The translations under genes and the position numbers were made by a program. Below the pieces are notes generated by a model that saw only the letters and a program-made list of their open reading frames with translations, was not told the DNA's origin and made no database searches. From Pelagomonas calceolata (Eukaryota), in NCBI GenBank assembly GCA_918797485.1, contig CAKKNE010000003.1:2666001-2730000 (forward strand): a DNA stretch of 64,000 nt. The letters are read 5' to 3'. Below are positions 450 to 50,948 of this stretch, piece after piece (within the stretch, counting starts at the first letter, position 1; each line of letters opens with the position of its first letter).

Positions 450-2552
450 TTACTCGGCCTTCAGGTCCGGCGGCTTCCGGGACACGCGCCTCTCCGGTAG
501 CTGCGCGCGCAGCGCCGGCAGGAGCACGGCCGCCAGAATGCAAAGGAGCGGCCCGTCCACAAAAGTATCCCCGTAGGTGATCCCAATAAAGCGCCGCAGG
601 CGGTTCGCCGTACTTTCTGAAGGCGCTTCCGGAGCGACGGGCCACTGTTGGGGCTCGACGACCTGCATCCGCAACAACGTCGAGTCGACCTTGGGGACGT
701 ACTCCTTGATCCGCGTTCTCTTCCAGTACTTCGTACAGTCACTCCCACACAACTCGGTACCGGGGATACTTCGAGCCCAGCGCGACGGCGCCCTCGTAAA
801 GTCGTAGTGGTAGAGCCAGGCCCGGACGAAGGCCGGCGGCTTCTCGCGGAAGGGGTACGCGTCCACATCTAACAGTTGCAAGGCGGCGTCGTTTGATGGT
901 ATTCTTGTAGTAATACGGTACATGAGGTGCAATAACCAAGGGTTGTGCTGGTAGTGACCTAACGCGGCGAACCAGAGCTGCCAATCTAACCTAGGTTGGT
1001 GCGGCGCCGTCCGCCGAGGTGCTCGTTCTTCGACGAACGGCGCATATCTAAAAGGGATCTCTTCCCACACTGAACCGTTGGTGGAGCCCTCGAGGACGAC
1101 GGCGGGCACTTCGACCAGTGAGGGAGGCAGACCGCCGTAGCCTCGGCCTTCCGAAGCGCCGACGCCCGTCATCCGCCGAAACAGACCGTAGGAGTTCGAT
1201 ACGCGGAACGGATCGACGTGCTCCTTCCAGCCTTGCGTCAGGCGCTGGCCCGTCGGCGTCGGTATCAAAGGTAGGATCGACCTATTTGCGAGGGAGCCCA
1301 TCGGTATTATAATGATACCCATGTGGGCTAGACAGATCGCGGCGAGACCGAGGTGGAACGCGTACGCGACCGCGCCCCTCACCCAACCTTTTTTGTGAGC
1401 GGACCGCCGCGCGTAGTCCGAGCCCGCAAGAGCGGCGACGCCGTACAAGTACGCGACGGGCCGCCAGTCCAAAACGGCGGTGAGCATGCCCGCGACGAAG
1501 TAGCGGTCCGCTCGGTTTTCTATCGTGAAGCCGTCCGGTCTACTCAGAGCTGTTTTGTACGGCTTCGTTAGGGTGAGCGGGAAGAGATGTGTTGAGGCGT
1601 AGATCAACGATACTAATGAAGAGAAGCAGGCCGCCCTCTTACAGCCTTTCCGCCTCCACCAGCGCTCCCACGCGTTTTCAGATTCATCAAAGTCGCCGGC
1701 CCACGCCGGAAGTAATAATATACAGGTGTGCAGGTTGAACCAGTTGTAGTTGCCCGTGTACTGGATGAGGATCTGCAAAGGTAACTGGATCAAAACACCG
1801 ACGCGCCGCATCGCCGTGATCGGGGCCAGCAAAAACCAGGGCGCTACGAGCTCGACCAGGAACATTATTGCGGTACCGAGTCGCAATAATAGTGGTGGAA
1901 AGGAGTGGAAGGCCCAGGCCTGGCGCGTGGGCAGGCACGTCGACGCGAAGTGGTACTCCAATGCTGTCAAACTTTGCCAGGTCGGGCAGTCGGCCGTCAC
2001 CTTGACCACTCCACTCATGACCATGAACTTGACCCATAATGCTCTAAGGGGCCAGGCCATGGGGTGGCCGTTGCTGAGTTGGCCTCTTGCACTGATAGTG
2101 AAGAAGGGGGCGTAGAGTATGCTGGCCGCACCGGTCTCCAAGAGAAATATGTCCCACTGAAATCCCAGCCACGTCTGCGAAATTGTATATAATGTCAGGT
2201 AGTTCATGAACAGCACCGCGAACAGTAAAGCGTGGTGGACGCCCAAAATACACAGCATGCCTCCGGCTATCCCTACTATTGAGATGCCTTCTATGGCCTG
2301 ATCGATCGACGCGTCGTCGTCAGCCACAAACCACAGCCAGCAGGGCAACCGCTTGAAGCCGTCGACCGGCGTGGCCCCGGCGTACTCGTGCTTCAGCTTG
2401 CGCCAGAAGCTCGCGGCCGGCAGCAGTCCATTCGTGCTGAGTAGACCGGGGAACTGGAGCCAGAAGCTCACGAAGGCGCAGGTGTAGACCACGCCTAATC
2501 CTGTCAAGTAGAGGCTCCTTGTGGTGGTCTTGCCGCGGAGGGAGGAGGCCAT
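450..2552 (-). CDS. Lipase maturation factor family membrane protein (LMF2-like)
   Basis: FQWDIFLLETG, SGVVKV, TGNYNWFN, NSYGLFRRMTG and APHQPRLDWQLWFAAL motifs; multiple TM helices; start placed at MASSLRG (2552). Confidence 0.92.
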   Translation of the reverse strand: MASSLRGKTTTRSLYLTGLGVVYTCAFVSFWLQFPGLLSTNGLLPAASFWRKLKHEYAGATPVDGFKRLPCWLWFVADDDASIDQAIEGISIVGIAGGMLCILGVHHALLFAVLFMNYLTLYTISQTWLGFQWDIFLLETGAASILYAPFFTISARGQLSNGHPMAWPLRALWVKFMVMSGVVKVTADCPTWQSLTALEYHFASTCLPTRQAWAFHSFPPLLLRLGTAIMFLVELVAPWFLLAPITAMRRVGVLIQLPLQILIQYTGNYNWFNLHTCILLLPAWAGDFDESENAWERWWRRKGCKRAACFSSLVSLIYASTHLFPLTLTKPYKTALSRPDGFTIENRADRYFVAGMLTAVLDWRPVAYLYGVAALAGSDYARRSAHKKGWVRGAVAYAFHLGLAAICLAHMGIIIIPMGSLANRSILPLIPTPTGQRLTQGWKEHVDPFRVSNSYGLFRRMTGVGASEGRGYGGLPPSLVEVPAVVLEGSTNGSVWEEIPFRYAPFVEERAPRRTAPHQPRLDWQLWFAALGHYQHNPWLLHLMYRITTRIPSNDAALQLLDVDAYPFREKPPAFVRAWLYHYDFTRAPSRWARSIPGTELCGSDCTKYWKRTRIKEYVPKVDSTLLRMQVVEPQQWPVAPEAPSESTANRLRRFIGITYGDTFVDGPLLCILAAVLLPALRAQLPERRVSRKPPDLKAE

Positions 2553-14576: not shown

Positions 14577-16445
14577 ATGCGCTGCACAAGAAGCACCATG
14601 CTGCTCCTCGCCTGCAGAGTCGCTAGGGTCCGGGCGCTGCAGGCGCCGCGCAAGTTCGGCAGGCTGCGCGCGCTCGCGTCGACCGTCGCCGAGCCCGGGG
14701 CCAAGGTCCCCGTCACACTCTTGTCGGGATTCCTCGGCACGGGCAAGACTACTTTGTTGAGAAATCTGCTGGAGGAGGCCTCGCAAGACAAGGACTCGAA
14801 GGTAGGCGTGGTAGTCAATGACATGGCGGCGGTTAACATCGACGCCAAAATCACCGCGCGCCGATTGGACTTAGATGAAAGCGATTCCCCAAAAATGCAG
14901 GGCGCGGCGGAATTCGTGGAGATCGGCGACGGGTGCGTCTGCTGCTCCATGGCCGACGAGTTGTTTACGACGCTCGCGGAACTGGCGGCCGTGTCGTCCA
15001 TGAAAGGGTATCGGTACAATCATATTGTGATTGAGGCGACGGGCATCGCCGAACCTAGGTCCATCCGAGACCAGTTCCAGGACGCCGAGGCGGCCGGCAT
15101 GCCGCTCATGGAGGAAGTGGAACTGTCTACGTTAGTTACGGTCGTCGACAGTGCGGCCTTCCTGGACGCCTACGCGGAGACGGCGTCGATCGCGCAGCGG
15201 CCGGATTTGGCCGCGCCCGTCGACGACGATCCCAGTCCCTTCCTGATGGCGCGCTTCGACCACTCCCTCCAAAGGTCGGTCGTGGACTTGTTGGTGGAGC
15301 AGGTCGAGTGCGCCGACGTGCTGTTGCTCAACAAGAAAGACCTCGTCACCCAACAACAGATGGACCGCCTCGCCGAGATCATGAAAGCGTTGAACCCGAC
15401 CGCGATAGTAAAACAGTGCGAGTTCGGGGACGCGGCGTTAAATGAAGTGTTAGGTGTGGCCGGCGACGAAGGCGCCGCGCGCATCGGTCCGGTGGATGAG
15501 CACAAGGTCGCCGTCGCGGCGTCGAAGGGGGCCGCGTGTGATGATCCGGACTGCTCGGATCCCTCCCATCTGCACGCGCACGACTCGCACGCGCACGCCG
15601 CGAAGGAGGAGCACTCGCACGCGAGCCACGACCACGCGCATAAGGAGGAGGAGGCCTGCGCGGACCCGACCTGCACGGATCCCACGCACGACCACAGCCA
15701 CAAGCAGTGCATAAATCAAATTGTCGCGGCACGGCGCGTGTTGTGGTCGATTACCGCTCGTTTTAGCCAACATACACCCGACTCACTGGTTGATTTGCGC
15801 ACAGGCCACAAGGCGCACGACCACGCTCATGCGAAGGAGGAGGCCTGCGCGGACCCGACGTGCACGGACCCGACGCACGACCACAGCCACAAGGCGCACG
15901 ACCATTCGCACGGCCACACGCACGACGCCATCGGCATCGACTCCTTCGTCTACGCCGCGCGGCGGCCCTTCGCGCCGGCGCGGCTCCAGGAGTTGTTGCG
16001 GGCCCTGCCGGCCGACGTCACGGCGGCCATTAGTGATGGGAAGACGGACCACTCGGCCCTGAACCCCACCGCTAGAGCGCTCGCCACCATCGTGCGCTCG
16101 AAGGGCTTCCTCTGGCTCGCGTCGAGCCACGACGCGGCCTACTACTGGAGCCACGCGGGCAACCACTTCGCCGCCGAATTGATGGGCCGGTGGTGGGCGA
16201 CGCTGCCCGAGGACCGCTACCCCGAGGACATGCGGGCCTCGATTCTTTCGGACTTTGACGGCGAGGACGGCGACCGCCGCCAGGAGATCGTGTTCATCGG
16301 CGTGGGGGCCGTGGCGCAGCAGGCGGCCATCACGGAAGCCCTCGACGCGTGCCTCCTCACGGACGACGAGATGGCCGCCTACCGCGCGGCCGACGACGAC
16401 GCGCGGCCCGAGCTCTTCCCGAGCGACCTGCGCGTCCGCGCCTAG
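14577..16445 (+). CDS. COG0523/CobW-family metallochaperone GTPase with His/Cys-rich insert; contains a probable in-frame intron at 15697-15804
   Basis: GFLGTGKTT, GCVCC, IEATG and NKKD motifs; His-rich region; C-terminal RSKGFLW...RRQEIVFIG CobW_C domain. Confidence 0.93.
   Translation: MRCTRSTMLLLACRVARVRALQAPRKFGRLRALASTVAEPGAKVPVTLLSGFLGTGKTTLLRNLLEEASQDKDSKVGVVVNDMAAVNIDAKITARRLDLDESDSPKMQGAAEFVEIGDGCVCCSMADELFTTLAELAAVSSMKGYRYNHIVIEATGIAEPRSIRDQFQDAEAAGMPLMEEVELSTLVTVVDSAAFLDAYAETASIAQRPDLAAPVDDDPSPFLMARFDHSLQRSVVDLLVEQVECADVLLLNKKDLVTQQQMDRLAEIMKALNPTAIVKQCEFGDAALNEVLGVAGDEGAARIGPVDEHKVAVAASKGAACDDPDCSDPSHLHAHDSHAHAAKEEHSHASHDHAHKEEEACADPTCTDPTHDHSHKQCINQIVAARRVLWSITARFSQHTPDSLVDLRTGHKAHDHAHAKEEACADPTCTDPTHDHSHKAHDHSHGHTHDAIGIDSFVYAARRPFAPARLQELLRALPADVTAAISDGKTDHSALNPTARALATIVRSKGFLWLASSHDAAYYWSHAGNHFAAELMGRWWATLPEDRYPEDMRASILSDFDGEDGDRRQEIVFIGVGAVAQQAAITEALDACLLTDDEMAAYRAADDDARPELFPSDLRVRA
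15705..15804 (+). mobile_element. Introner-like non-autonomous DNA transposon (family A), 100 bp
   Basis: 8-bp TSD GCCACAAG (15697-15704 and 15805-15812); imperfect TIRs CAGTGCATAAATCAA / TTGATTTGCGCACAG. The adjacent protein repeat at 15875-15904 shows the empty site. Confidence 0.85.
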
Positions 16446-46004: not shown

Positions 46005-47216
46005 TCAGGTGGAGATCTCCGCGTATGGCCGCCGCCGCGTCTTGCCGCAGCAGCACTGCGGGCACAGCTGCCGGGCGACCCGATGCAGCGCCGGCGCCGC
46101 CATGGACAGCACCAACGCAGCCACGAACATGCCGACGACCGCGAGGCCGACGGCCGTCGTGTGCGCATCTAATGCCTCCGAGAGCGCCACGAGCGGCCCG
46201 GCGACGCGCGGCGGCAGGAACGGGGCCACGAGCCCCAAGCCAACGATGCTCCCAATCGCGAGCGACGCCGCGGCCGACGCCGCCGTGAGTAAGGCACCAA
46301 ACAGTAAAGCGCCCGCGGCGTCGCCGTCGTTGCCCTTCGCGAAGGTGAAGAGCACCAGCAACCCGTCGCACGTGTCGACCAAGGCCATGCCCGACGTGAA
46401 TAAGGCGGGCAGGAGCATGACCAGGGGCGCGGGGACATCTTTCGGCCCCACCGCCGCTAAGGCAAGTAAACCAACTTCAGAGGCCGTCTCGAAGCCCAAC
46501 CCAAACAGCACGCCCACGAAGTACATCTTCCAGGCCGCGTCGACCGATGCCAAAAGCCGCTTGCAGCAGCCGCACCGCGCGAACAGCCCGCCCGTCACCT
46601 CAACCCTTACTTGCTCGCCCTCATCAATCAACTCGGCGTTGTGGTTGTGGTGGTGCTCGCGCTGTTGTTTGTTCGCGGCGCGGCGCCACGCTCGAAATTG
46701 CGGGCCCACGGTCGCGAGGTTGAACGCCCCGATCAGCGTCAAAGTAACGGACGAAAACACGGCGCTCACGACGGCGCCCGTGCTCGCGACGGCGTCGACG
46801 CGCGACCTGATGAGGGACGAGCCGGTGGCCACGATGCCGCACAGCAGCAAAACCATTGTGCTGTGGCCGAGGCTGAACCAGAGGCCGACCAGAGCAGCCG
46901 GTTTTCCGGAGTAGGCCAGCTTCCGCGCCACGTTGTCGATGGCGGCGATGTGGTCACAGTCGACGCCGTGTCTCAACCCAAAACCGAGCGCGAGGAGGCC
47001 CGGGGAGACTAGAGCTGGATAACGCCCCCCGATCGCGAGCAGCGACGCGACCAGGACGACGTTCGCCAGCACAATCACCACAAGAGTCCCGCGCACGGCG
47101 AGCGTCGCGCAGGGCGACGTGTTCATCGCGTGGGGCGTCGCGGGCGCGTCCGGCGTGCTGCCGTAGCCGCCGGTCTCGACGAGCTCCAGCGCGCGGGGCT
47201 TTGGGTCGGGCGCCAT
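46005..47216 (-). CDS. High-affinity nickel/cobalt transporter (NiCoT, HoxN/NixA family)
   Basis: GLRHGVDCDHIAAIDN, FSLGHST, LFGLGFETASE and GMALVDTCDG signatures. Confidence 0.93.
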   Translation of the reverse strand: MAPDPKPRALELVETGGYGSTPDAPATPHAMNTSPCATLAVRGTLVVIVLANVVLVASLLAIGGRYPALVSPGLLALGFGLRHGVDCDHIAAIDNVARKLAYSGKPAALVGLWFSLGHSTMVLLLCGIVATGSSLIRSRVDAVASTGAVVSAVFSSVTLTLIGAFNLATVGPQFRAWRRAANKQQREHHHNHNAELIDEGEQVRVEVTGGLFARCGCCKRLLASVDAAWKMYFVGVLFGLGFETASEVGLLALAAVGPKDVPAPLVMLLPALFTSGMALVDTCDGLLVLFTFAKGNDGDAAGALLFGALLTAASAAASLAIGSIVGLGLVAPFLPPRVAGPLVALSEALDAHTTAVGLAVVGMFVAALVLSMAAPALHRVARQLCPQCCCGKTRRRPYAEIST

Positions 47217-47654: not shown

Positions 47655-48290
47655 ATGATGATGCCAGCAGCCCTACGCGTCGCAGCCCTCTGCGCGAGCG
47701 CGCATGCGTTGCAAATGACGGGCCGGCGGCGCTGCCTCCACGGCCTCGGCGGCGCAGCATTGATGAAGACGCTGGCGCCGCGCCGCGCGGGCGCCGAGGC
47801 GGCGCCGACGCCCGACGAACTTAAAAAACTCACGCTCGGCTACCAGCGCATGCAGACCCTTTTAAAAGATTGGCAGAAGATCACGGGCGGCTCCTGCGGC
47901 AACGCCCAGCTCTCGAAGGAGAAGGCCCAGGTCGTGGCCACGAACGGCGGCGCCTTGTGCGACGCGTCTCCTTTAGTGATTCAGGAGTACATTGGATACA
48001 AGTCGATCAACGACCCGCTCTACCGGAGCGAGAAGCTCATGGTCCGCGCCGCGCCCCTCCTCAAGAACCCCGACGACCTCGACCAGTACCTCGAGGCCGT
48101 GAATTTGTGGGGCCAGAAGATCCAGATGTCGTCGCTGAACGCCTACACATCGGCCTGGGGCGAGGCGAACCCGAACGGGTCGAAAGCGCAAGTCGCGGCC
48201 TACATGCAAGAAGCAAAATTCGACGTCGAGGAGTCCGCGGACCTGCTGAAGCGGATTTTGGTGATGCTTGGCTTGCCGCTTACTGCCTAA
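47655..48290 (+). CDS. Putative thylakoid-lumen protein
   Basis: Signal peptide (ASAHA-LQ), twin-Arg RRR, hydrophobic stretch and AGA cleavage site; mature part IQEYIGYKSINDPL...AYTSAWGEANP. Confidence 0.75.
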   Translation: MMMPAALRVAALCASAHALQMTGRRRCLHGLGGAALMKTLAPRRAGAEAAPTPDELKKLTLGYQRMQTLLKDWQKITGGSCGNAQLSKEKAQVVATNGGALCDASPLVIQEYIGYKSINDPLYRSEKLMVRAAPLLKNPDDLDQYLEAVNLWGQKIQMSSLNAYTSAWGEANPNGSKAQVAAYMQEAKFDVEESADLLKRILVMLGLPLTA

Positions 48291-48350
48291 ATCTAGTCTT
48301 GTGTATTTAGTTCTTTAACTTTCTACACAGTGAGTCACACAACCCGACGC

Positions 48351-48415
48351 GTGTTCGTGGGATCAGGTCCGCGCGCCAAGTAAGCGCGCGCACCGTCATA
48401 TATTCACGACGACAC
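48351..48415 (-). promoter_or_regulatory. SECIS-like element (eukaryotic type I geometry, non-canonical apical loop)
   Basis: Minus-strand RNA: GUGUCGUCGUG AAUAU AUGAC GGUGCGCGCGC UUACUUG GCGCGCGGACC UGAU CC CACGAACAC. It has the AUGA/GA quartet, an ~11-bp helix II and a helix I. Confidence 0.75.
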
Positions 48416-49048
48416 GAGTCGCACCCGGTACGGCCCGCGGACCTTTTTCACATCAACAACCGAACCCTTCTGAGTGACGACGACGCGGCCGCGCCCCACC
48501 AGGTCGCGCACCGCGGCGTGCGAGGCCGGCATCCACGACCGCCAATCACACGCCGCAGTAGCAAGCCGCCGCGGCGCCTCCGACGGTCAGCACGTCTTGC
48601 CCGCGCCGCGCGCCGCGAGGATCCGGAGCGTCTCCGTCGCGAGCTCGGTCTGAGTCGGCGCCTGGCGGGAGCGCTTCGCCGGCGGCGCCGCCTTGTCGTC
48701 AGCGCGCGAACGCTTGCCCGGCGCGGGCAGTTCGCGAAGCACACAATCGGCCGAGACCCGGCCGTCCGCGTCGAAGACGACTCCTTCGGATTCCAACAGC
48801 GCCCGCTTCCGCCGCACCGCAGGAGCGGCCGCGCCCCACTCGCCGCTGAAGCCGCCGAGGCGCCGGTCCGACGCGATCACTCGCTGTCAGGGCACTCTCG
48901 TCTCGGCGGGACAGTTCTTGCGCATCACAGCGCCGACGGACCGCGCACAGCCGCCCGCTACTGCAGCCACGGCTCCATACGTCGTCACCTTGCCCGCGGG
49001 CACGGCGCGCACGACAGCGTGCACCTTGGACTCGAAGGCTGTCGGCAT
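48404..49048 (-). CDS. Candidate selenoprotein: MGMT/ATL alkyltransferase domain plus DUF3253-like domain, 214 aa, Sec at residues 54 and 154
   Basis: Reading from ATG 49048 through TGA 48887-48889 and TGA 48587-48589 gives VPAGKVTTYG..ARSVG..RKN..VP*QRVI..LGGF..KRALLESEG, then RGAGKTC*PSE..DWR..M..VTQKG..VD..RGPYRVRL, ending at TGA 48404-48406. A SECIS-like hairpin follows. Confidence 0.85.
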
Positions 49049-49583
49049 CCTCTCACGTTGCTACGCGTCGACGACGCAAATGCGTCGCGGCTTTGAGAGA
49101 TGCCGACACTGCTGCTGCTCTGCAGCCTCTGCAGCCTGTGCAGGACTGTGCAATCGCGCCGCAAGGACACAGATGTCAAATGCACGCGCAGCGCAGCGAT
49201 GCAGTCGCCAACTGGCGGTACCGTGCCTTTTGGAACGGCAGTCAGAGGTTTGCCAGCTTTTTGCTGCCAGAGATGGCCTCCTTGTGACTCCAGGCACTGC
49301 GGTAGAGTGGCCCAAATGGATGCACGGCGCGAAACACAGCCGGTCCGAACGCCGGAAAGACTCCTCGCGCCGGAAAGCCGTTTTAAGTGTGTTTGCTACG
49401 CTAGGTGAGTTATTTTTTGGTAAACAGCCGGGCCCGAACCAGCCAAAAGCGCTGCAAGCAGTAGCCGGGCTTGCTGTGCTAACGCGTCGAAGCTACGGGC
49501 GGCCACAGGCCACACGGCTGCCGGAGCAACGCTTCGGACCAGGGGGACGCGAAACCTAAGGCCACAGCGCACCGCGCGGCGCG

Positions 49584-50948
49584 ATGGCCAGCATGGCGAA
49601 CTCGACGCTCATCGGCACCATGAACATGCTGGGCGACGCCTACAACCCCTTCGAGTTCCTGGCGGTCGACGACTCCAAGTTCATGGCCGTCTGCGAGTCC
49701 TTCGAGGCGCGCGCGCGGGCGGTCACGTGGGCGGACCTCGACGCCCAGGGCCTCAATGAACTTGTAGAGGCCTGCGGCGGCGCCGTCGCCGACCGCCTGA
49801 CGGCCATGCGGAGCAAGGAGGCCTGGGCGGCGATGGACGACAGCGCGTTGGAGGACGACAACAAATTCTTCGACCACCGCATGAATCTGATTGTCTTCGC
49901 GATGCGGCGCTTCGACCGCGACGCGGCGACGTGCGCGGACAAGGGCCCCCTAGTCTGGGAGCTCACGTCGAACAAAGAGTGGTGGCAGCTGTTGAAACGA
50001 TGCTGCGAGAAGGGCGACACGTACCGGAAGTCTCCCTCACTCCTCGCCTGGGATTTATTGTGCTGCGTCGTGGCGTCGGAAGACGCGTCGACCTTCGCCG
50101 AGACCTGCAAGGCGTCCTACCTCAACCCGGACAACACGGAGCGGCACGCGCAGATTTTTGTTGATGCCGCGCTCAACGTCGCGCGGGACGCGCGCATGGG
50201 CCGCTGCGTGCTGGGGTTGCAGGAGTTCCCCCAGGCCGGCACGCCGCGGGCCGCCGTCTTCGAGGCGGCGTTCAAGACGGCGGGCTTCGAGGTCGTGCGA
50301 GCCGTGCGGAGCTGCGCGCTCGTGCACAAGGGCTTTGGGAGTGGTGGCGCGGTCCTGGCCGACGGCGGCGATGCTTCCATAGGCGTCGACGCCGACGCGG
50401 TCATGAAGACCCTCACCCGTGATGCGAACGGCGAGCCGAAGTATGATAAGAAGACGATGGCGGCGTTCGAGGGCACTACCGCGGCCAAGGTCCTATCTGT
50501 GAGACTAGACGGCGTGGCCTACCACGCGCTGCATGCGAAGGAGCCGAAGACGCCCGAGGCCGCCGAGTTATTGGCCAAGTTCCTCGCGGCGCACGCCGCG
50601 GCCTGCGGCGCGGGACCCTTCGCGTGGCTCGTGGATACGAACCTCGCGAAGGAGTCGACGGACTCGGCCTTCCGGCGGGAAGTGGAAGCGAGCGGCCTCC
50701 AGGTGTCGGCGAGCGTGCCGACAACGTCCAAGCGGCGGTCGCGCCTCCACGGCCAGTGCTACGACGACAACAAGTGCCACAAGACCGTGGTCGCCGCGAA
50801 GGACAAGTTCGTGGTCACGGACGGCTCTTTGGAATTGCTGCCGACGGTGCCCGATTTAGCAGATGAGGCGCACCCCGTGACATTACCCCGCGAGACGTGG
50901 CCCGCGGACCACGCGCTCGTCGCGGCGGTGTTCGCGCCCTCGGCGTAG
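49584..50948 (+). CDS. Endonuclease/exonuclease/phosphatase (EEP) superfamily protein
   Basis: GTMN, LGLQE, ALHA, VDTN, KDK and PADH motifs in EEP order. Confidence 0.7.
   Translation: MASMANSTLIGTMNMLGDAYNPFEFLAVDDSKFMAVCESFEARARAVTWADLDAQGLNELVEACGGAVADRLTAMRSKEAWAAMDDSALEDDNKFFDHRMNLIVFAMRRFDRDAATCADKGPLVWELTSNKEWWQLLKRCCEKGDTYRKSPSLLAWDLLCCVVASEDASTFAETCKASYLNPDNTERHAQIFVDAALNVARDARMGRCVLGLQEFPQAGTPRAAVFEAAFKTAGFEVVRAVRSCALVHKGFGSGGAVLADGGDASIGVDADAVMKTLTRDANGEPKYDKKTMAAFEGTTAAKVLSVRLDGVAYHALHAKEPKTPEAAELLAKFLAAHAAACGAGPFAWLVDTNLAKESTDSAFRREVEASGLQVSASVPTTSKRRSRLHGQCYDDNKCHKTVVAAKDKFVVTDGSLELLPTVPDLADEAHPVTLPRETWPADHALVAAVFAPSA

What the first reader, a model, noticed from the sequence alone, without database searches (positions are those of the whole stretch)
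48404..49048. Hidden two-selenocysteine DNA-alkyltransferase/DUF3253 fusion protein
Seen in sequence: one minus-strand frame from ATG 49048 reads MPTAFESKVHAVVRAVPAGKVTTYGAVAAVAGGCARSVGAVMRKNCPAETRVP*QRVIASDRRLGGFSGEWG...KRALLESEGVVFD...(linker)...LRILAARGAGKTC*PSEAPRRLA...DWRSWMP...VVVTQKGSVVDVKKVRGPYRVRLVSS-stop. The two internal stops are both TGA (48887-48889, codon 54; 48587-48589, codon 154), and there are no frameshifts. Established knowledge: the first half has the MGMT/Ogt/ATL DNA-binding fold (TYG tyrosine, arginine finger, asparagine hinge, KxxLLxxEG), whose alkyl-acceptor motif is PCHRV (PWHRV in ATLs). The second half matches the DUF3253 winged-helix pattern RGxGKTICPSE...WR..M...TQKG...RGPIRLR. 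Pelagophytes such as Aureococcus have very large selenoproteomes. Inference: each TGA lies at the conserved Cys of its domain, which is very unlikely for random nonsense decay, so both are probably Sec. That would make a nuclear (KRSR...PPAKRSR NLS-like linker) DNA-repair selenoenzyme with two Sec sites. I do not know of this architecture being described, and standard gene callers would break or miss it.
Basis: partly seen in the sequence, partly recalled or inferred. Interest (0 to 1): 0.95.

Follow-up and report, generated by a model that had tools for sequence, protein, structure and literature searches.

The report
Two-selenocysteine DNA-repair fusion, unusual SECIS
An expressed gene of a marine single-celled eukaryote has two in-frame TGA "stop" codons exactly where relatives have the key cysteine of each of its two domains, so it most likely makes a DNA-alkylation repair protein with two selenocysteines, one of them in an unstudied domain (DUF3253) that I could not find reported to use selenium.

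Summary
Confirmed. The ORF 49048-48404(-) encodes an alkyltransferase (MGMT/Ogt) C-terminal domain, a basic linker and a DUF3253 winged helix. TGA54 and TGA154 align with each domain's conserved Cys.

In orthologous metagenome loci, TGA54 is kept in 15 of 15 aligned rows and TGA154 in 17 of 17, while synonymous sites vary. dN/dS stays at 0.07 and 0.20 downstream of them. RNA contigs from two studies span the gene unspliced and unchanged.

Its AUGAC/UGAU core is conserved, but it has no apical AA, and two orthologues shrink helix II to 5 bp.

A distant eukaryotic locus has a stand-alone DUF3253 with the same TGA and a canonical SECIS. Other eukaryotes have Cys-MGMT/DUF3253 fusions whose predicted proteins end exactly at that site.

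Sec-MGMT is already catalogued in bacteria and algae. I found no Sec-DUF3253 or two-Sec fusion in print, but key algal supplements were unreadable. This scan has noted the same family before on other genomes. Sec insertion, alkyl transfer and the role of Sec154 are untested.

The parts
48330..49272 (-). Unspliced transcript span (approximate ends); about 220 nt 5' leader without ATG, short 3' region holding the SECIS
   Evidence: Contig X5 48330-49272 and X8 48326-49263, 0 differences, 0 gaps; stranded poly(A) reads on the minus-strand transcript; zero depth at 49304-49374; no ATG in 49049-49272. Contigs do not fix exact ends.
48404..49048 (-). CDS, 214 aa when both internal TGAs are read as Sec
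   Evidence: orthologous full-length CDS lengths all multiples of 3 in 14 unique rows
48779..49036 (-). AGT/MGMT C-terminal domain (res 5-90): Tyr24, Arg36 finger, Asn45 hinge with inserted Cys46, PUQR motif, Glu88; no AGT N-terminal domain
   Evidence: Pfam PF01035, TIGR00589, PDB alignments; residues invariant in 15 of 15 rows; model matches 1eh6 at Z 10.7 and 2kim at Z 13.6
48887..48889 (-). TGA codon 54, predicted Sec at the alkyl-acceptor Cys position
   Evidence: TGA in 15 of 15 aligned rows; Cys in 165 and Trp in 5 of 175 homologues aligned at this column
48650..48727 (-). Flexible linker (res 108-133) with two basic clusters (KRSR x2), NLS-like (inferred)
   Evidence: dN/dS 0.56 with in-frame indels; pLDDT below 50 at 117-126; L011 and L013 each lose one cluster and keep the other
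48416..48646 (-). DUF3253 winged-helix domain (res 135-211) with vicinal Cys153-Sec154
   Evidence: Pfam PF11625; model vs 2ns0 Z 14.8, rmsd 1.7, 85 aligned
48587..48589 (-). TGA codon 154, predicted Sec at the conserved DUF3253 Cys
   Evidence: TGA in 17 of 17 aligned rows; Cys in 20 of 21 other DUF3253 metagenome loci, TGA in the 21st, L018
48404..48406 (-). Terminal TGA, read as a true stop (inferred)
   Evidence: Only 4 nt from the SECIS core, below the 51-111 nt minimum quoted in PMC3753652; TAG in L014
48345..48421 (-). SECIS-like element: helix I (starts in the last codons), core AUGAC (48399-48395) / UGAU (48365-48362), helix II of 11 pairs with one mismatch, U-rich loop without AA
   Evidence: Fold z -2.4 to -3.6; only strict core-plus-helix hit on both strands of the 64-kb window (5 hits under a relaxed rule); same position in 16 of 16 orthologues with downstream DNA; helix II cells 100% paired

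Best explanation
This transcribed, unspliced gene likely makes a 214-residue selenoprotein in which both internal UGA codons are predicted to be read as selenocysteine under a single AA-less SECIS hairpin right after the stop, and the protein likely repairs alkylated DNA.

The N-terminal domain is predicted to act as a single-turnover O6-alkylguanine alkyltransferase. The helix-turn-helix, Arg36 and Tyr24 would flip the base, and the Sec54 selenolate would take the alkyl group. It would need no His general base (here Gln).

The DUF3253 winged helix would replace the missing N-terminal AGT domain as a second DNA-binding module on a flexible, NLS-like linker. Its Cys153-Sec154 pair would be a second reactive centre, most likely either a further alkyl/electrophile acceptor or a redox switch.

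The terminal UGA would stay a stop because it lies only 4 nt from the SECIS core, whereas U54 and U154 lie 487 and 187 nt upstream.

Shown: sequence, domains, TGA conservation, selection, transcript and hairpin conservation. Inferred: Sec insertion, SECIS function, activity, localisation and the role of Sec154.
For: TGA at both conserved Cys columns, invariant in 15 of 15 and 17 of 17 aligned rows at 79-99.8% nucleotide identity. dN/dS is 0.07 after U54 and 0.20 after U154, against 0.56 in the linker.

Unspliced, unedited RNA contigs in two studies.

SECIS core matches the UGAN/KGAW consensus of PMC3753652. It is the only strict hit in 64 kb and is present in 16 of 16 orthologues.

Independent lineage: L018 (GC 50%, 49% identity) has a stand-alone DUF3253 with TGA at the same column and a canonical type II SECIS with AAAA 10 nt after the core. 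It was found by a search that did not ask for TGA.

Predicted proteins that end exactly before U154: 22 of 206 fetched. They include Cys-type AGT fusions at 42-44% identity (P0048, P0052, with MMETSP and JGI members).

P0164 starts just after U54 and ends just before U154. The Chrysophaeum taylorii model KAJ8598090.1 lacks both segments around the two sites.

A Cys/Cys fusion in the reverse domain order exists (P0042).

The Sec rows sit with Cys AGTs, separated from Trp ATLs at 100/100.

Engineered human AGT with Sec repairs MNNG damage, H146N keeps activity, and Sec rescues N137A (PMC4150793). The N-terminal domain is not strictly required (PMC10779285).
Against: No protein-level or 75Se evidence. 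No genome is held, so tRNA-Sec, SBP2 and eEFSec were not checked in this organism.

The hairpin lacks the apical AA/CC required by the SECISearch patterns (PMC2375036). Rfam found no SECIS here, but it also missed the canonical-looking one in L018. There are no two-sided compensatory changes, and the shuffle control is uninformative. L008 and L014 have only a 5-bp helix II and do not fold significantly (z -1.05 and -0.56).

L001-L017 are close relatives: neighbouring genes are 81-100% identical in DNA.

L016 keeps both TGAs but has a 2-nt deletion between them; it was left out of the counts. P0041 (83-84% identical, a singleton) shows Cys-Cys at 153-154.

Gln at the His position is typical of ATLs: 3 of 5 Trp-type against 1 of 165 Cys-type homologues.

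Raw-read depth over U154 is only about 1-2 per run. The function of DUF3253 is unknown, and DNA-repair neighbours were rare (photolyase domain in 1 of 13 bacterial loci).
Confidence: 0.78

Rival explanations
1. Both residues are Sec, but the AGT-like domain does not transfer alkyl groups. It works like an ATL damage sensor, or as a redox or metal module, with the selenols doing redox chemistry.
For: No N-terminal domain, as in ATLs. His-to-Gln is common in ATLs (3 of 5 Trp-type). Best AGT-family structural match is the small Vibrio protein 2kim, Z 13.6. Extra invariant Cys at 34, 46, 102 and 153.
Against: The tree places the domain with Cys AGTs, not ATLs. Asn45 and Glu88 are kept. H146N and the Sec form of human AGT are active. 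N-domain-less active AGT fusions are known.
Confidence: 0.12
2. The TGAs are read as Trp or Cys by a changed code or by leaky read-through, giving an ATL-like PWQR protein.
For: TGA is one step from TGG, and PWQR is a real ATL motif. The SECIS is atypical.
Against: TGA ends 5 of 23 long ORFs in the window, and Trp is TGG 150 times in them. Of the DUF3253 loci read, none has Trp at the 154 column (Cys 36, TGA 1; Cys 20, TGA 1). A conserved SECIS core follows the gene, and L018 has a canonical SECIS.
Confidence: 0.04
3. Read-through is inefficient or conditional, and the main products are truncated (53 aa, or the 153-aa AGT plus linker), so that selenium supply gates the DUF3253 module.
For: The non-canonical SECIS could be weak. 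Raw-read depth falls from 5' to 3' in all four raw runs.
Against: Purifying selection after U154 (dN/dS 0.20) and invariant DUF3253 core residues require a functional full-length product. The depth dip coincides with 76-79% GC, and the neighbouring gene dips at its 82% GC bin too. This rival is compatible with the best explanation as a regulatory layer.
Confidence: 0.04
4. The gene is a decaying pseudogene with two nonsense mutations, or the TGAs are sequencing errors or are spliced out.
For: One orthologue (L016) is frameshifted. In-frame GT..AG pairs could in principle remove TGA54 (8 candidates), though none exist for TGA154.
Against: Invariant TGAs, frame-preserving indels and low dN/dS. 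RNA contigs identical to the DNA and no joints. The same TGA column appears in a distant eukaryote.
Confidence: 0.02

Closest known systems
[quoted passage not shown] 2020, PMC7539508)
   Same: Same domain with Sec at the alkyl-acceptor position; presumed DNA repair role.
   Different: The bacterial family is listed with 1 Sec. The main text of PMC7539508 names no DUF3253 domain and does not list this among its fusions. Its figures, supplement and database could not be seen, so an Aureococcus orthologue may hide under 'MDP'.
O6-alkylguanine-DNA alkyltransferases (human AGT, E. coli Ogt and Ada-C) and N-domain-less AGT fusions (C. elegans AGT-2, Ferroplasma AGTendoV; PMC10779285)
   Same: HTH, Tyr, Arg finger, Asn hinge, Glu of the triad and nucleophile position; C-terminal domain fused to another module.
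   Different: Sec for Cys, Gln for His, one Cys inserted in the hinge; the fusion partner is DUF3253, which carries its own predicted Sec.
Alkyltransferase-like proteins (ATL; S. pombe Atl1 3gva, Vibrio 2kim)
   Same: Single AGT-type domain without the N-terminal domain; Gln after the active-site residue occurs in some ATLs.
   Different: ATLs have Trp rather than a nucleophile and form a separate clade.
DUF3253 / PF11625 (PDB 2ns0, Rhodococcus RHA04536)
   Same: Same winged-helix fold (Z 14.8, rmsd 1.7) and the same conserved xCPSE motif position.
   Different: Bacterial members have Ile-Cys and are mostly fused to DUF2256 (9 of 10 DUF3253 ORFs scanned). Here the motif is Cys-Sec and the partner is an AGT. 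No paper in the library mentions DUF3253.
Eukaryotic type I SECIS element
   Same: AUGAN/KGAW kink-turn core, helix I, helix II of about 11-12 bp, 3'-UTR location, more than 111 nt from both Sec codons.
   Different: No apical AA or CC. Helix I overlaps the last codons and the core lies 4 nt after the stop. Two orthologues have a 5-bp helix II with a GCGA loop.
E. coli Ada (two alkyl-acceptor cysteines in two domains; PMC10779285)
   Same: Functional analogy only: two domains, each with one predicted reactive chalcogen, one being an AGT domain.
   Different: Ada's second site is a Zn-bound Cys that repairs methylphosphotriesters. DUF3253 has a different fold and no activity is shown.

Membership tests
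AGT/MGMT (PF01035) | Profile match above curated cut-off | tested here: met
   PF01035 75.1 vs 27 bits; TIGR00589 51.2 vs 46.4
AGT/MGMT (PF01035) | HTH with Tyr and Arg finger, Asn hinge, triad Glu | tested here: met
   Y24, R36, N45 and E88 align with AGT residues and are invariant in 15 of 15 rows; one residue is inserted in the hinge
AGT/MGMT (PF01035) | PCHR(V/I) motif with nucleophile and His | tested here: inconclusive
   The motif is P-TGA-Q-R-V. The nucleophile depends on Sec insertion, and His is replaced by Gln. H146N is tolerated in human AGT (PMC4150793), and one Cys homologue has PCQR (P0121).
AGT/MGMT (PF01035) | Stoichiometric alkyl transfer from O6-alkylguanine | not testable with these tools
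   Needs a biochemical assay or ada ogt complementation
ATL | Trp (non-nucleophile) at the active site, and ATL clade | tested here: not met
   The codon is TGA, not TGG, in 15 of 15 rows; the rows group with Cys AGTs, apart from Trp ATLs at 100/100
DUF3253 (PF11625) | Profile match and winged-helix fold like 2ns0 | tested here: met
   77.5 vs 22.1 bits; Z 14.8, rmsd 1.7, 85 aligned; Foldseek E 1.9e-6
Eukaryotic selenoprotein | In-frame UGA aligned to a conserved Cys, with conserved sequence on both sides | tested here: met
Eukaryotic selenoprotein | UGA present in the unspliced mature mRNA | tested here: met
   Contigs X5 and X8 span both codons with 0 differences; no joints listed in raw reads; raw depth at U154 is low
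Eukaryotic selenoprotein | 3'-UTR SECIS core (UGAN/KGAW) with helices I and II | tested here: met
Eukaryotic SECIS (canonical) | Unpaired apical AA (or CC) 10-13 nt from the core | tested here: not met
   No AA between the core halves in the window or in 16 of 16 orthologues. The script's CC flags fall in paired stem positions, or at the helix-loop edge in L005 only. L018 does have AAAA.
Eukaryotic selenoprotein | Sec machinery (tRNA-Sec, SBP2, eEFSec, SecS) in the genome | not testable with these tools
   No genome held for this window
Eukaryotic selenoprotein | Selenium in the protein | not testable with these tools
   Needs 75Se labelling or MS

The most novel reading that the evidence does not exclude
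DUF3253 is an unrecognised selenoprotein family and a second alkyl-acceptor domain. This protein would then be a convergent, all-selenium counterpart of Ada, with one Sec for O6-alkylguanine and one on a winged helix for another DNA adduct such as methylphosphotriesters. It would be decoded by a minimal SECIS that needs only the kink-turn core and as little as a 5-bp cap, with no apical AA, so current SECIS searches would miss such genes.
Probability: 0.2. Interest if true: 0.9.

Novelty: new variant of a known kind. Interest (0 to 1): 0.72.

Why it matters
Most described selenoproteins are thiol oxidoreductases. Here selenium would be spent on a one-shot DNA repair protein, and twice per molecule.

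Sec marks the conserved Cys of DUF3253 as reactive. Fusion to an alkyltransferase in both domain orders gives this unstudied bacterial and eukaryotic domain its first testable function.

The AA-less and 5-bp-helix hairpins are natural tests of what a eukaryotic SECIS minimally needs, and they suggest that algal selenoproteomes are under-counted.

Gene callers break this gene. Database entries stop at the TGA, start after it, or skip both sites.

Tried and rejected
Unavailable:
- No whole genome is held, so Sec machinery and other SECIS elements of this organism were not checked.
- Gobler 2011 and 2013 were not held.
- The PMC7539508 supplement was too large to read.
- The BSepDB supplement search found 0 hits even for the control term 'methylated', so it is uninformative.

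Uninformative or negative:
- Rfam found no SECIS at the locus and none in L018, L008 or L014, so a miss there carries no information.
- Covariation gave no two-sided changes, and 368 of 500 shuffles reached the observed score. I do not count it as support beyond 100% pairing of helix II.
- 'Longer' homologue searches with the DUF3253 domain returned 1 and 0 proteins; this is weak evidence.
- A TGA-anchored DUF3253 pattern found 0 matches in viral contigs and 19 in prokaryotic genomes, 18 of them not DUF3253.
- Z-alpha likeness of the winged helix (Z 7.4-8.6) is within the generic range and is not claimed.
- A DNA-repair gene neighbourhood for bacterial DUF3253 was not established (1 of 13 loci).

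Considered and rejected or held weak:
- The one real bacterial hit (L062/G001) has SelA, SelB and tRNA-Sec over cut-off and a hairpin fitting the bSECIS model. But 12 of 36 Cys controls also fit (3 of 36 with a stem of 6 bp or more), and it is the only TGA case among 17 matches in 61 genomes. I treat it as a weak lead.
- The idea that this gene is unusually diverse was rejected, since neighbours diverge similarly in DNA.
- A third Sec at the terminal TGA was rejected (4 nt from the core; TAG in L014).
- No complex prediction was run.

Full report
OBSERVATION. The minus-strand frame from ATG 49048 to 48404 has internal TGA at codons 54 and 154 and a terminal TGA. Read through, it scores above cut-off for PF01035 (res 5-90) and PF11625 (res 135-211) and for TIGR00589 ogt. 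Codon 54 aligns with the PCHR Cys of solved AGTs, and codon 154 with the Cys of ICPS in 2ns0. The window is eukaryotic (kinesin, WD40, AP2, EF-hand genes), GC is 56-70% per 2-kb bin, and TGA ends 5 of 23 long ORFs, so it is a normal stop here. A pelagophyte origin is my inference. It rests on recall of pelagophyte GC content and on the named Chrysophaeum taylorii homologue with the same architecture; no genome was held.

CONSERVATION. A metagenome scan gave 54 loci, 17 of them orthologues at 81-93% amino-acid identity. I aligned the window with 16 of the 17; L016 was left out because of a 2-nt deletion between the two TGAs, both of which it keeps. TGA54 is present in 15 of 15 rows that cover it and TGA154 in 17 of 17. 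Only 39 of 141 amino-acid-invariant columns are codon-invariant, and the terminal stop is TAG in L014. Over 14 unique full-length rows, dN/dS is 0.10 before U54, 0.07 after it, 0.56 in the linker, 0.24 before U154 and 0.20 after it. These are close relatives (neighbour genes 81-100% identical in DNA), so deeper evidence matters.

DEEPER LINEAGES. Among the 21 other DUF3253 loci from that scan, 20 have Ile-Cys. One, L018 (GC 50%, 49% identity), has Cys-TGA at the same column. L018 is a stand-alone DUF3253 gene of an unidentified eukaryote with a probable intron and a basic N-terminus. About 100 nt after its stop it has a canonical type II SECIS with AUGAC, AAAA and UGAA; its free fold is not significant, as is common for such elements (own knowledge). 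The representative search returned P0048 and P0052, Cys-type AGTs whose predicted proteins run through a linker and stop exactly before the U154 position. It also returned P0164, which starts after U54 and stops before U154; P0084 (C. taylorii KAJ8598090.1), which lacks both segments around the two sites; and P0042, a Cys/Cys fusion in the reverse order. For these proteins I saw no DNA, so TGA is inferred from where they end. In all, 22 of 206 fetched proteins end at that point. One singleton, P0041, reads Cys-Cys there. One verrucomicrobial genome with SelA, SelB and tRNA-Sec also has TGA at this column, but it is a singleton among relatives, was found by a TGA-anchored search, and its hairpin test is weak. 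The pattern suggests that Sec in DUF3253 is the wider trait and Sec54 was added in this lineage, where a SECIS already existed. That order is inference and was not tested with a rooted tree.

EXPRESSION. Twenty of 24 listed runs hold the stretch or part of it. Contigs of X5 and X8 (two studies; RNA by guess, but broken at gene borders with zero depth at 49304-49374) cover 48330-49272 and 48326-49263 with no differences. Stranded poly(A) raw reads place the RNA on the minus strand, with no joints and neither of the 2 listed differences at a TGA. Two more raw runs and two poly(A) metatranscriptomes again show no joints. There, 99 difference rows were not shown, so absence of change at the TGAs is not fully checked in those runs. 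Raw depth is 1-2 over U154 and higher at the 5' end; high GC is the likely cause.

SECIS. Directly after the stop lies a hairpin (z -2.4 to -3.6 for stretches ending at 48320-48350). Its core is AUGAC/UGAU, matching the UGAN/KGAW consensus (PMC3753652, passages). Helix II has 11 pairs plus a mismatch, the loop is U-rich, and helix I begins in the last codons. It was the only strict hit on both strands of the window (5 under a relaxed rule) and the only hit downstream of all 16 orthologues with flanking DNA. Helix II cells are 100% paired, with five one-sided changes and no two-sided ones. No copy has the apical AA that SECISearch patterns require (PMC2375036, passages). L008 and L014 keep the core and both TGAs, but cap it with only 5 bp and a GCGA loop, and have no other candidate downstream (L008 has only 125 nt of flank). 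The distances of 487, 187 and 4 nt from the three TGAs to the core, against a 51-111 nt minimum, explain why two would be recoded and the last would stop.

MECHANISM. The model has two well-predicted domains and a loose linker (mean pLDDT 90.6, pTM 0.53). It matches AGT/ATL structures (Z 7.6-13.6) and 2ns0 (Z 14.8). Y24, R36, N45 and E88 are invariant. His is Gln, against His in 169 of 175 homologues. A tree of 72 rows (56 of 182 eligible proteins plus 16 locus and window rows; 20 short hits dropped; bootstrap not fully settled; some ATL rows mislabelled by my regex) separates the Trp ATLs from the Cys and Sec rows at 100/100. Human AGT works with Sec, tolerates H146N, and with Sec also tolerates N137A (PMC4150793, passages and section 21). 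The AGT N-terminal domain is not strictly needed (PMC10779285, passages). I therefore commit to a Sec-based single-turnover alkyltransferase with a tethered winged helix. Sec154 lies between the first strand and the second helix. I judge a second acceptor or a redox switch about equally open. In bacteria the domain is mostly fused to DUF2256 (9 of 10 ORFs with a DUF3253 hit).

PRIOR KNOWLEDGE. Sec-MGMT is listed among known bacterial selenoproteins (PMC1976440, passages; PMC13188914, table passages) and as algal 'MDP' (PMC7539508: abstract, passages, sections 5 and 11; figures and supplement unseen). The 2026 prokaryotic catalogue text holds no PF11625 or DUF3253. DUF3253 occurs in 0 papers of the library. 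Searches (listings only) showed no paper on this fusion or on an AA-less algal SECIS. PMC13326102 (passages; supplement uninformative) and PMC6627142 (passages) added nothing. The Aureococcus papers were not held, so prior recording of an orthologue cannot be excluded. After I had formed my reading, this scan's notes showed the same family on other genomes; none matched this DNA by sequence, and none described an AA-less SECIS.

VERDICT. The feature is real and very likely a two-Sec protein (about 0.9 for Sec at both sites, 0.78 with alkyl-transfer activity). It is a new variant of a known kind: a known Sec-MGMT joined to an apparently unreported Sec-bearing domain family, under a non-canonical SECIS. 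Interest 0.72.

Noticed in passing
L018:466-972 and 1074-1122 (+): Stand-alone DUF3253 gene of an unidentified eukaryote (GC 50%) with Cys-TGA at the conserved site, a probable intron, a basic N-terminus and a canonical type II SECIS; a tandem repeat lies between the stop and the SECIS.
   Followed up: partly
L062 / L081 (G001:C103:9716-9952, -): Verrucomicrobial DUF3253 with TGA at the Cys column, in a genome with SelA, SelB and tRNA-Sec; possible bacterial Sec-DUF3253, but a singleton.
   Followed up: yes
L008:1049-1071 and L014:2151-2173: Mini-SECIS: conserved core capped by a 5-bp stem and a GCGA tetraloop, in genes that keep both TGAs.
   Followed up: partly
P0042: DUF3253-MGMT fusion in the reverse order with Cys at both sites, pointing to a separate fusion event.
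   Followed up: partly
P0068, P0163/P0204, P0049, P0178: Other eukaryotic single-domain AGTs fused to unrelated long domains (P0204 is named from Diacronema lutheri); N-domain-less PCHR AGTs seem common in protists.
   Followed up: no
window 49061-49075 (-): Self-complementary GCGTCGTCGACGC stretch just upstream of the ATG; the GTCG(T/C)CGACG core recurs in most orthologous 5' leaders.
   Followed up: no
window 48310-48735: Raw poly(A) read depth is much lower over the 3' two-thirds of the gene than over the 5' end in all four raw runs; GC bias is likely but not shown.
   Followed up: partly
window 47655-48290 (+) and 49584-50948 (+): Flanking expressed genes without a Pfam match, syntenic in orthologous loci and 94-100% identical in protein; the first converges on this gene with transcript ends only tens of bases apart.
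   Followed up: partly
window 46005-47216 (-) and 14577-16445 (+): NicO-family nickel transporter and CobW-family metal chaperone genes.
   Followed up: no
L045:122-1767: Photolyase FAD-domain gene directly upstream of a DUF2256-DUF3253 gene (1 of 13 bacterial loci scanned).
   Followed up: no
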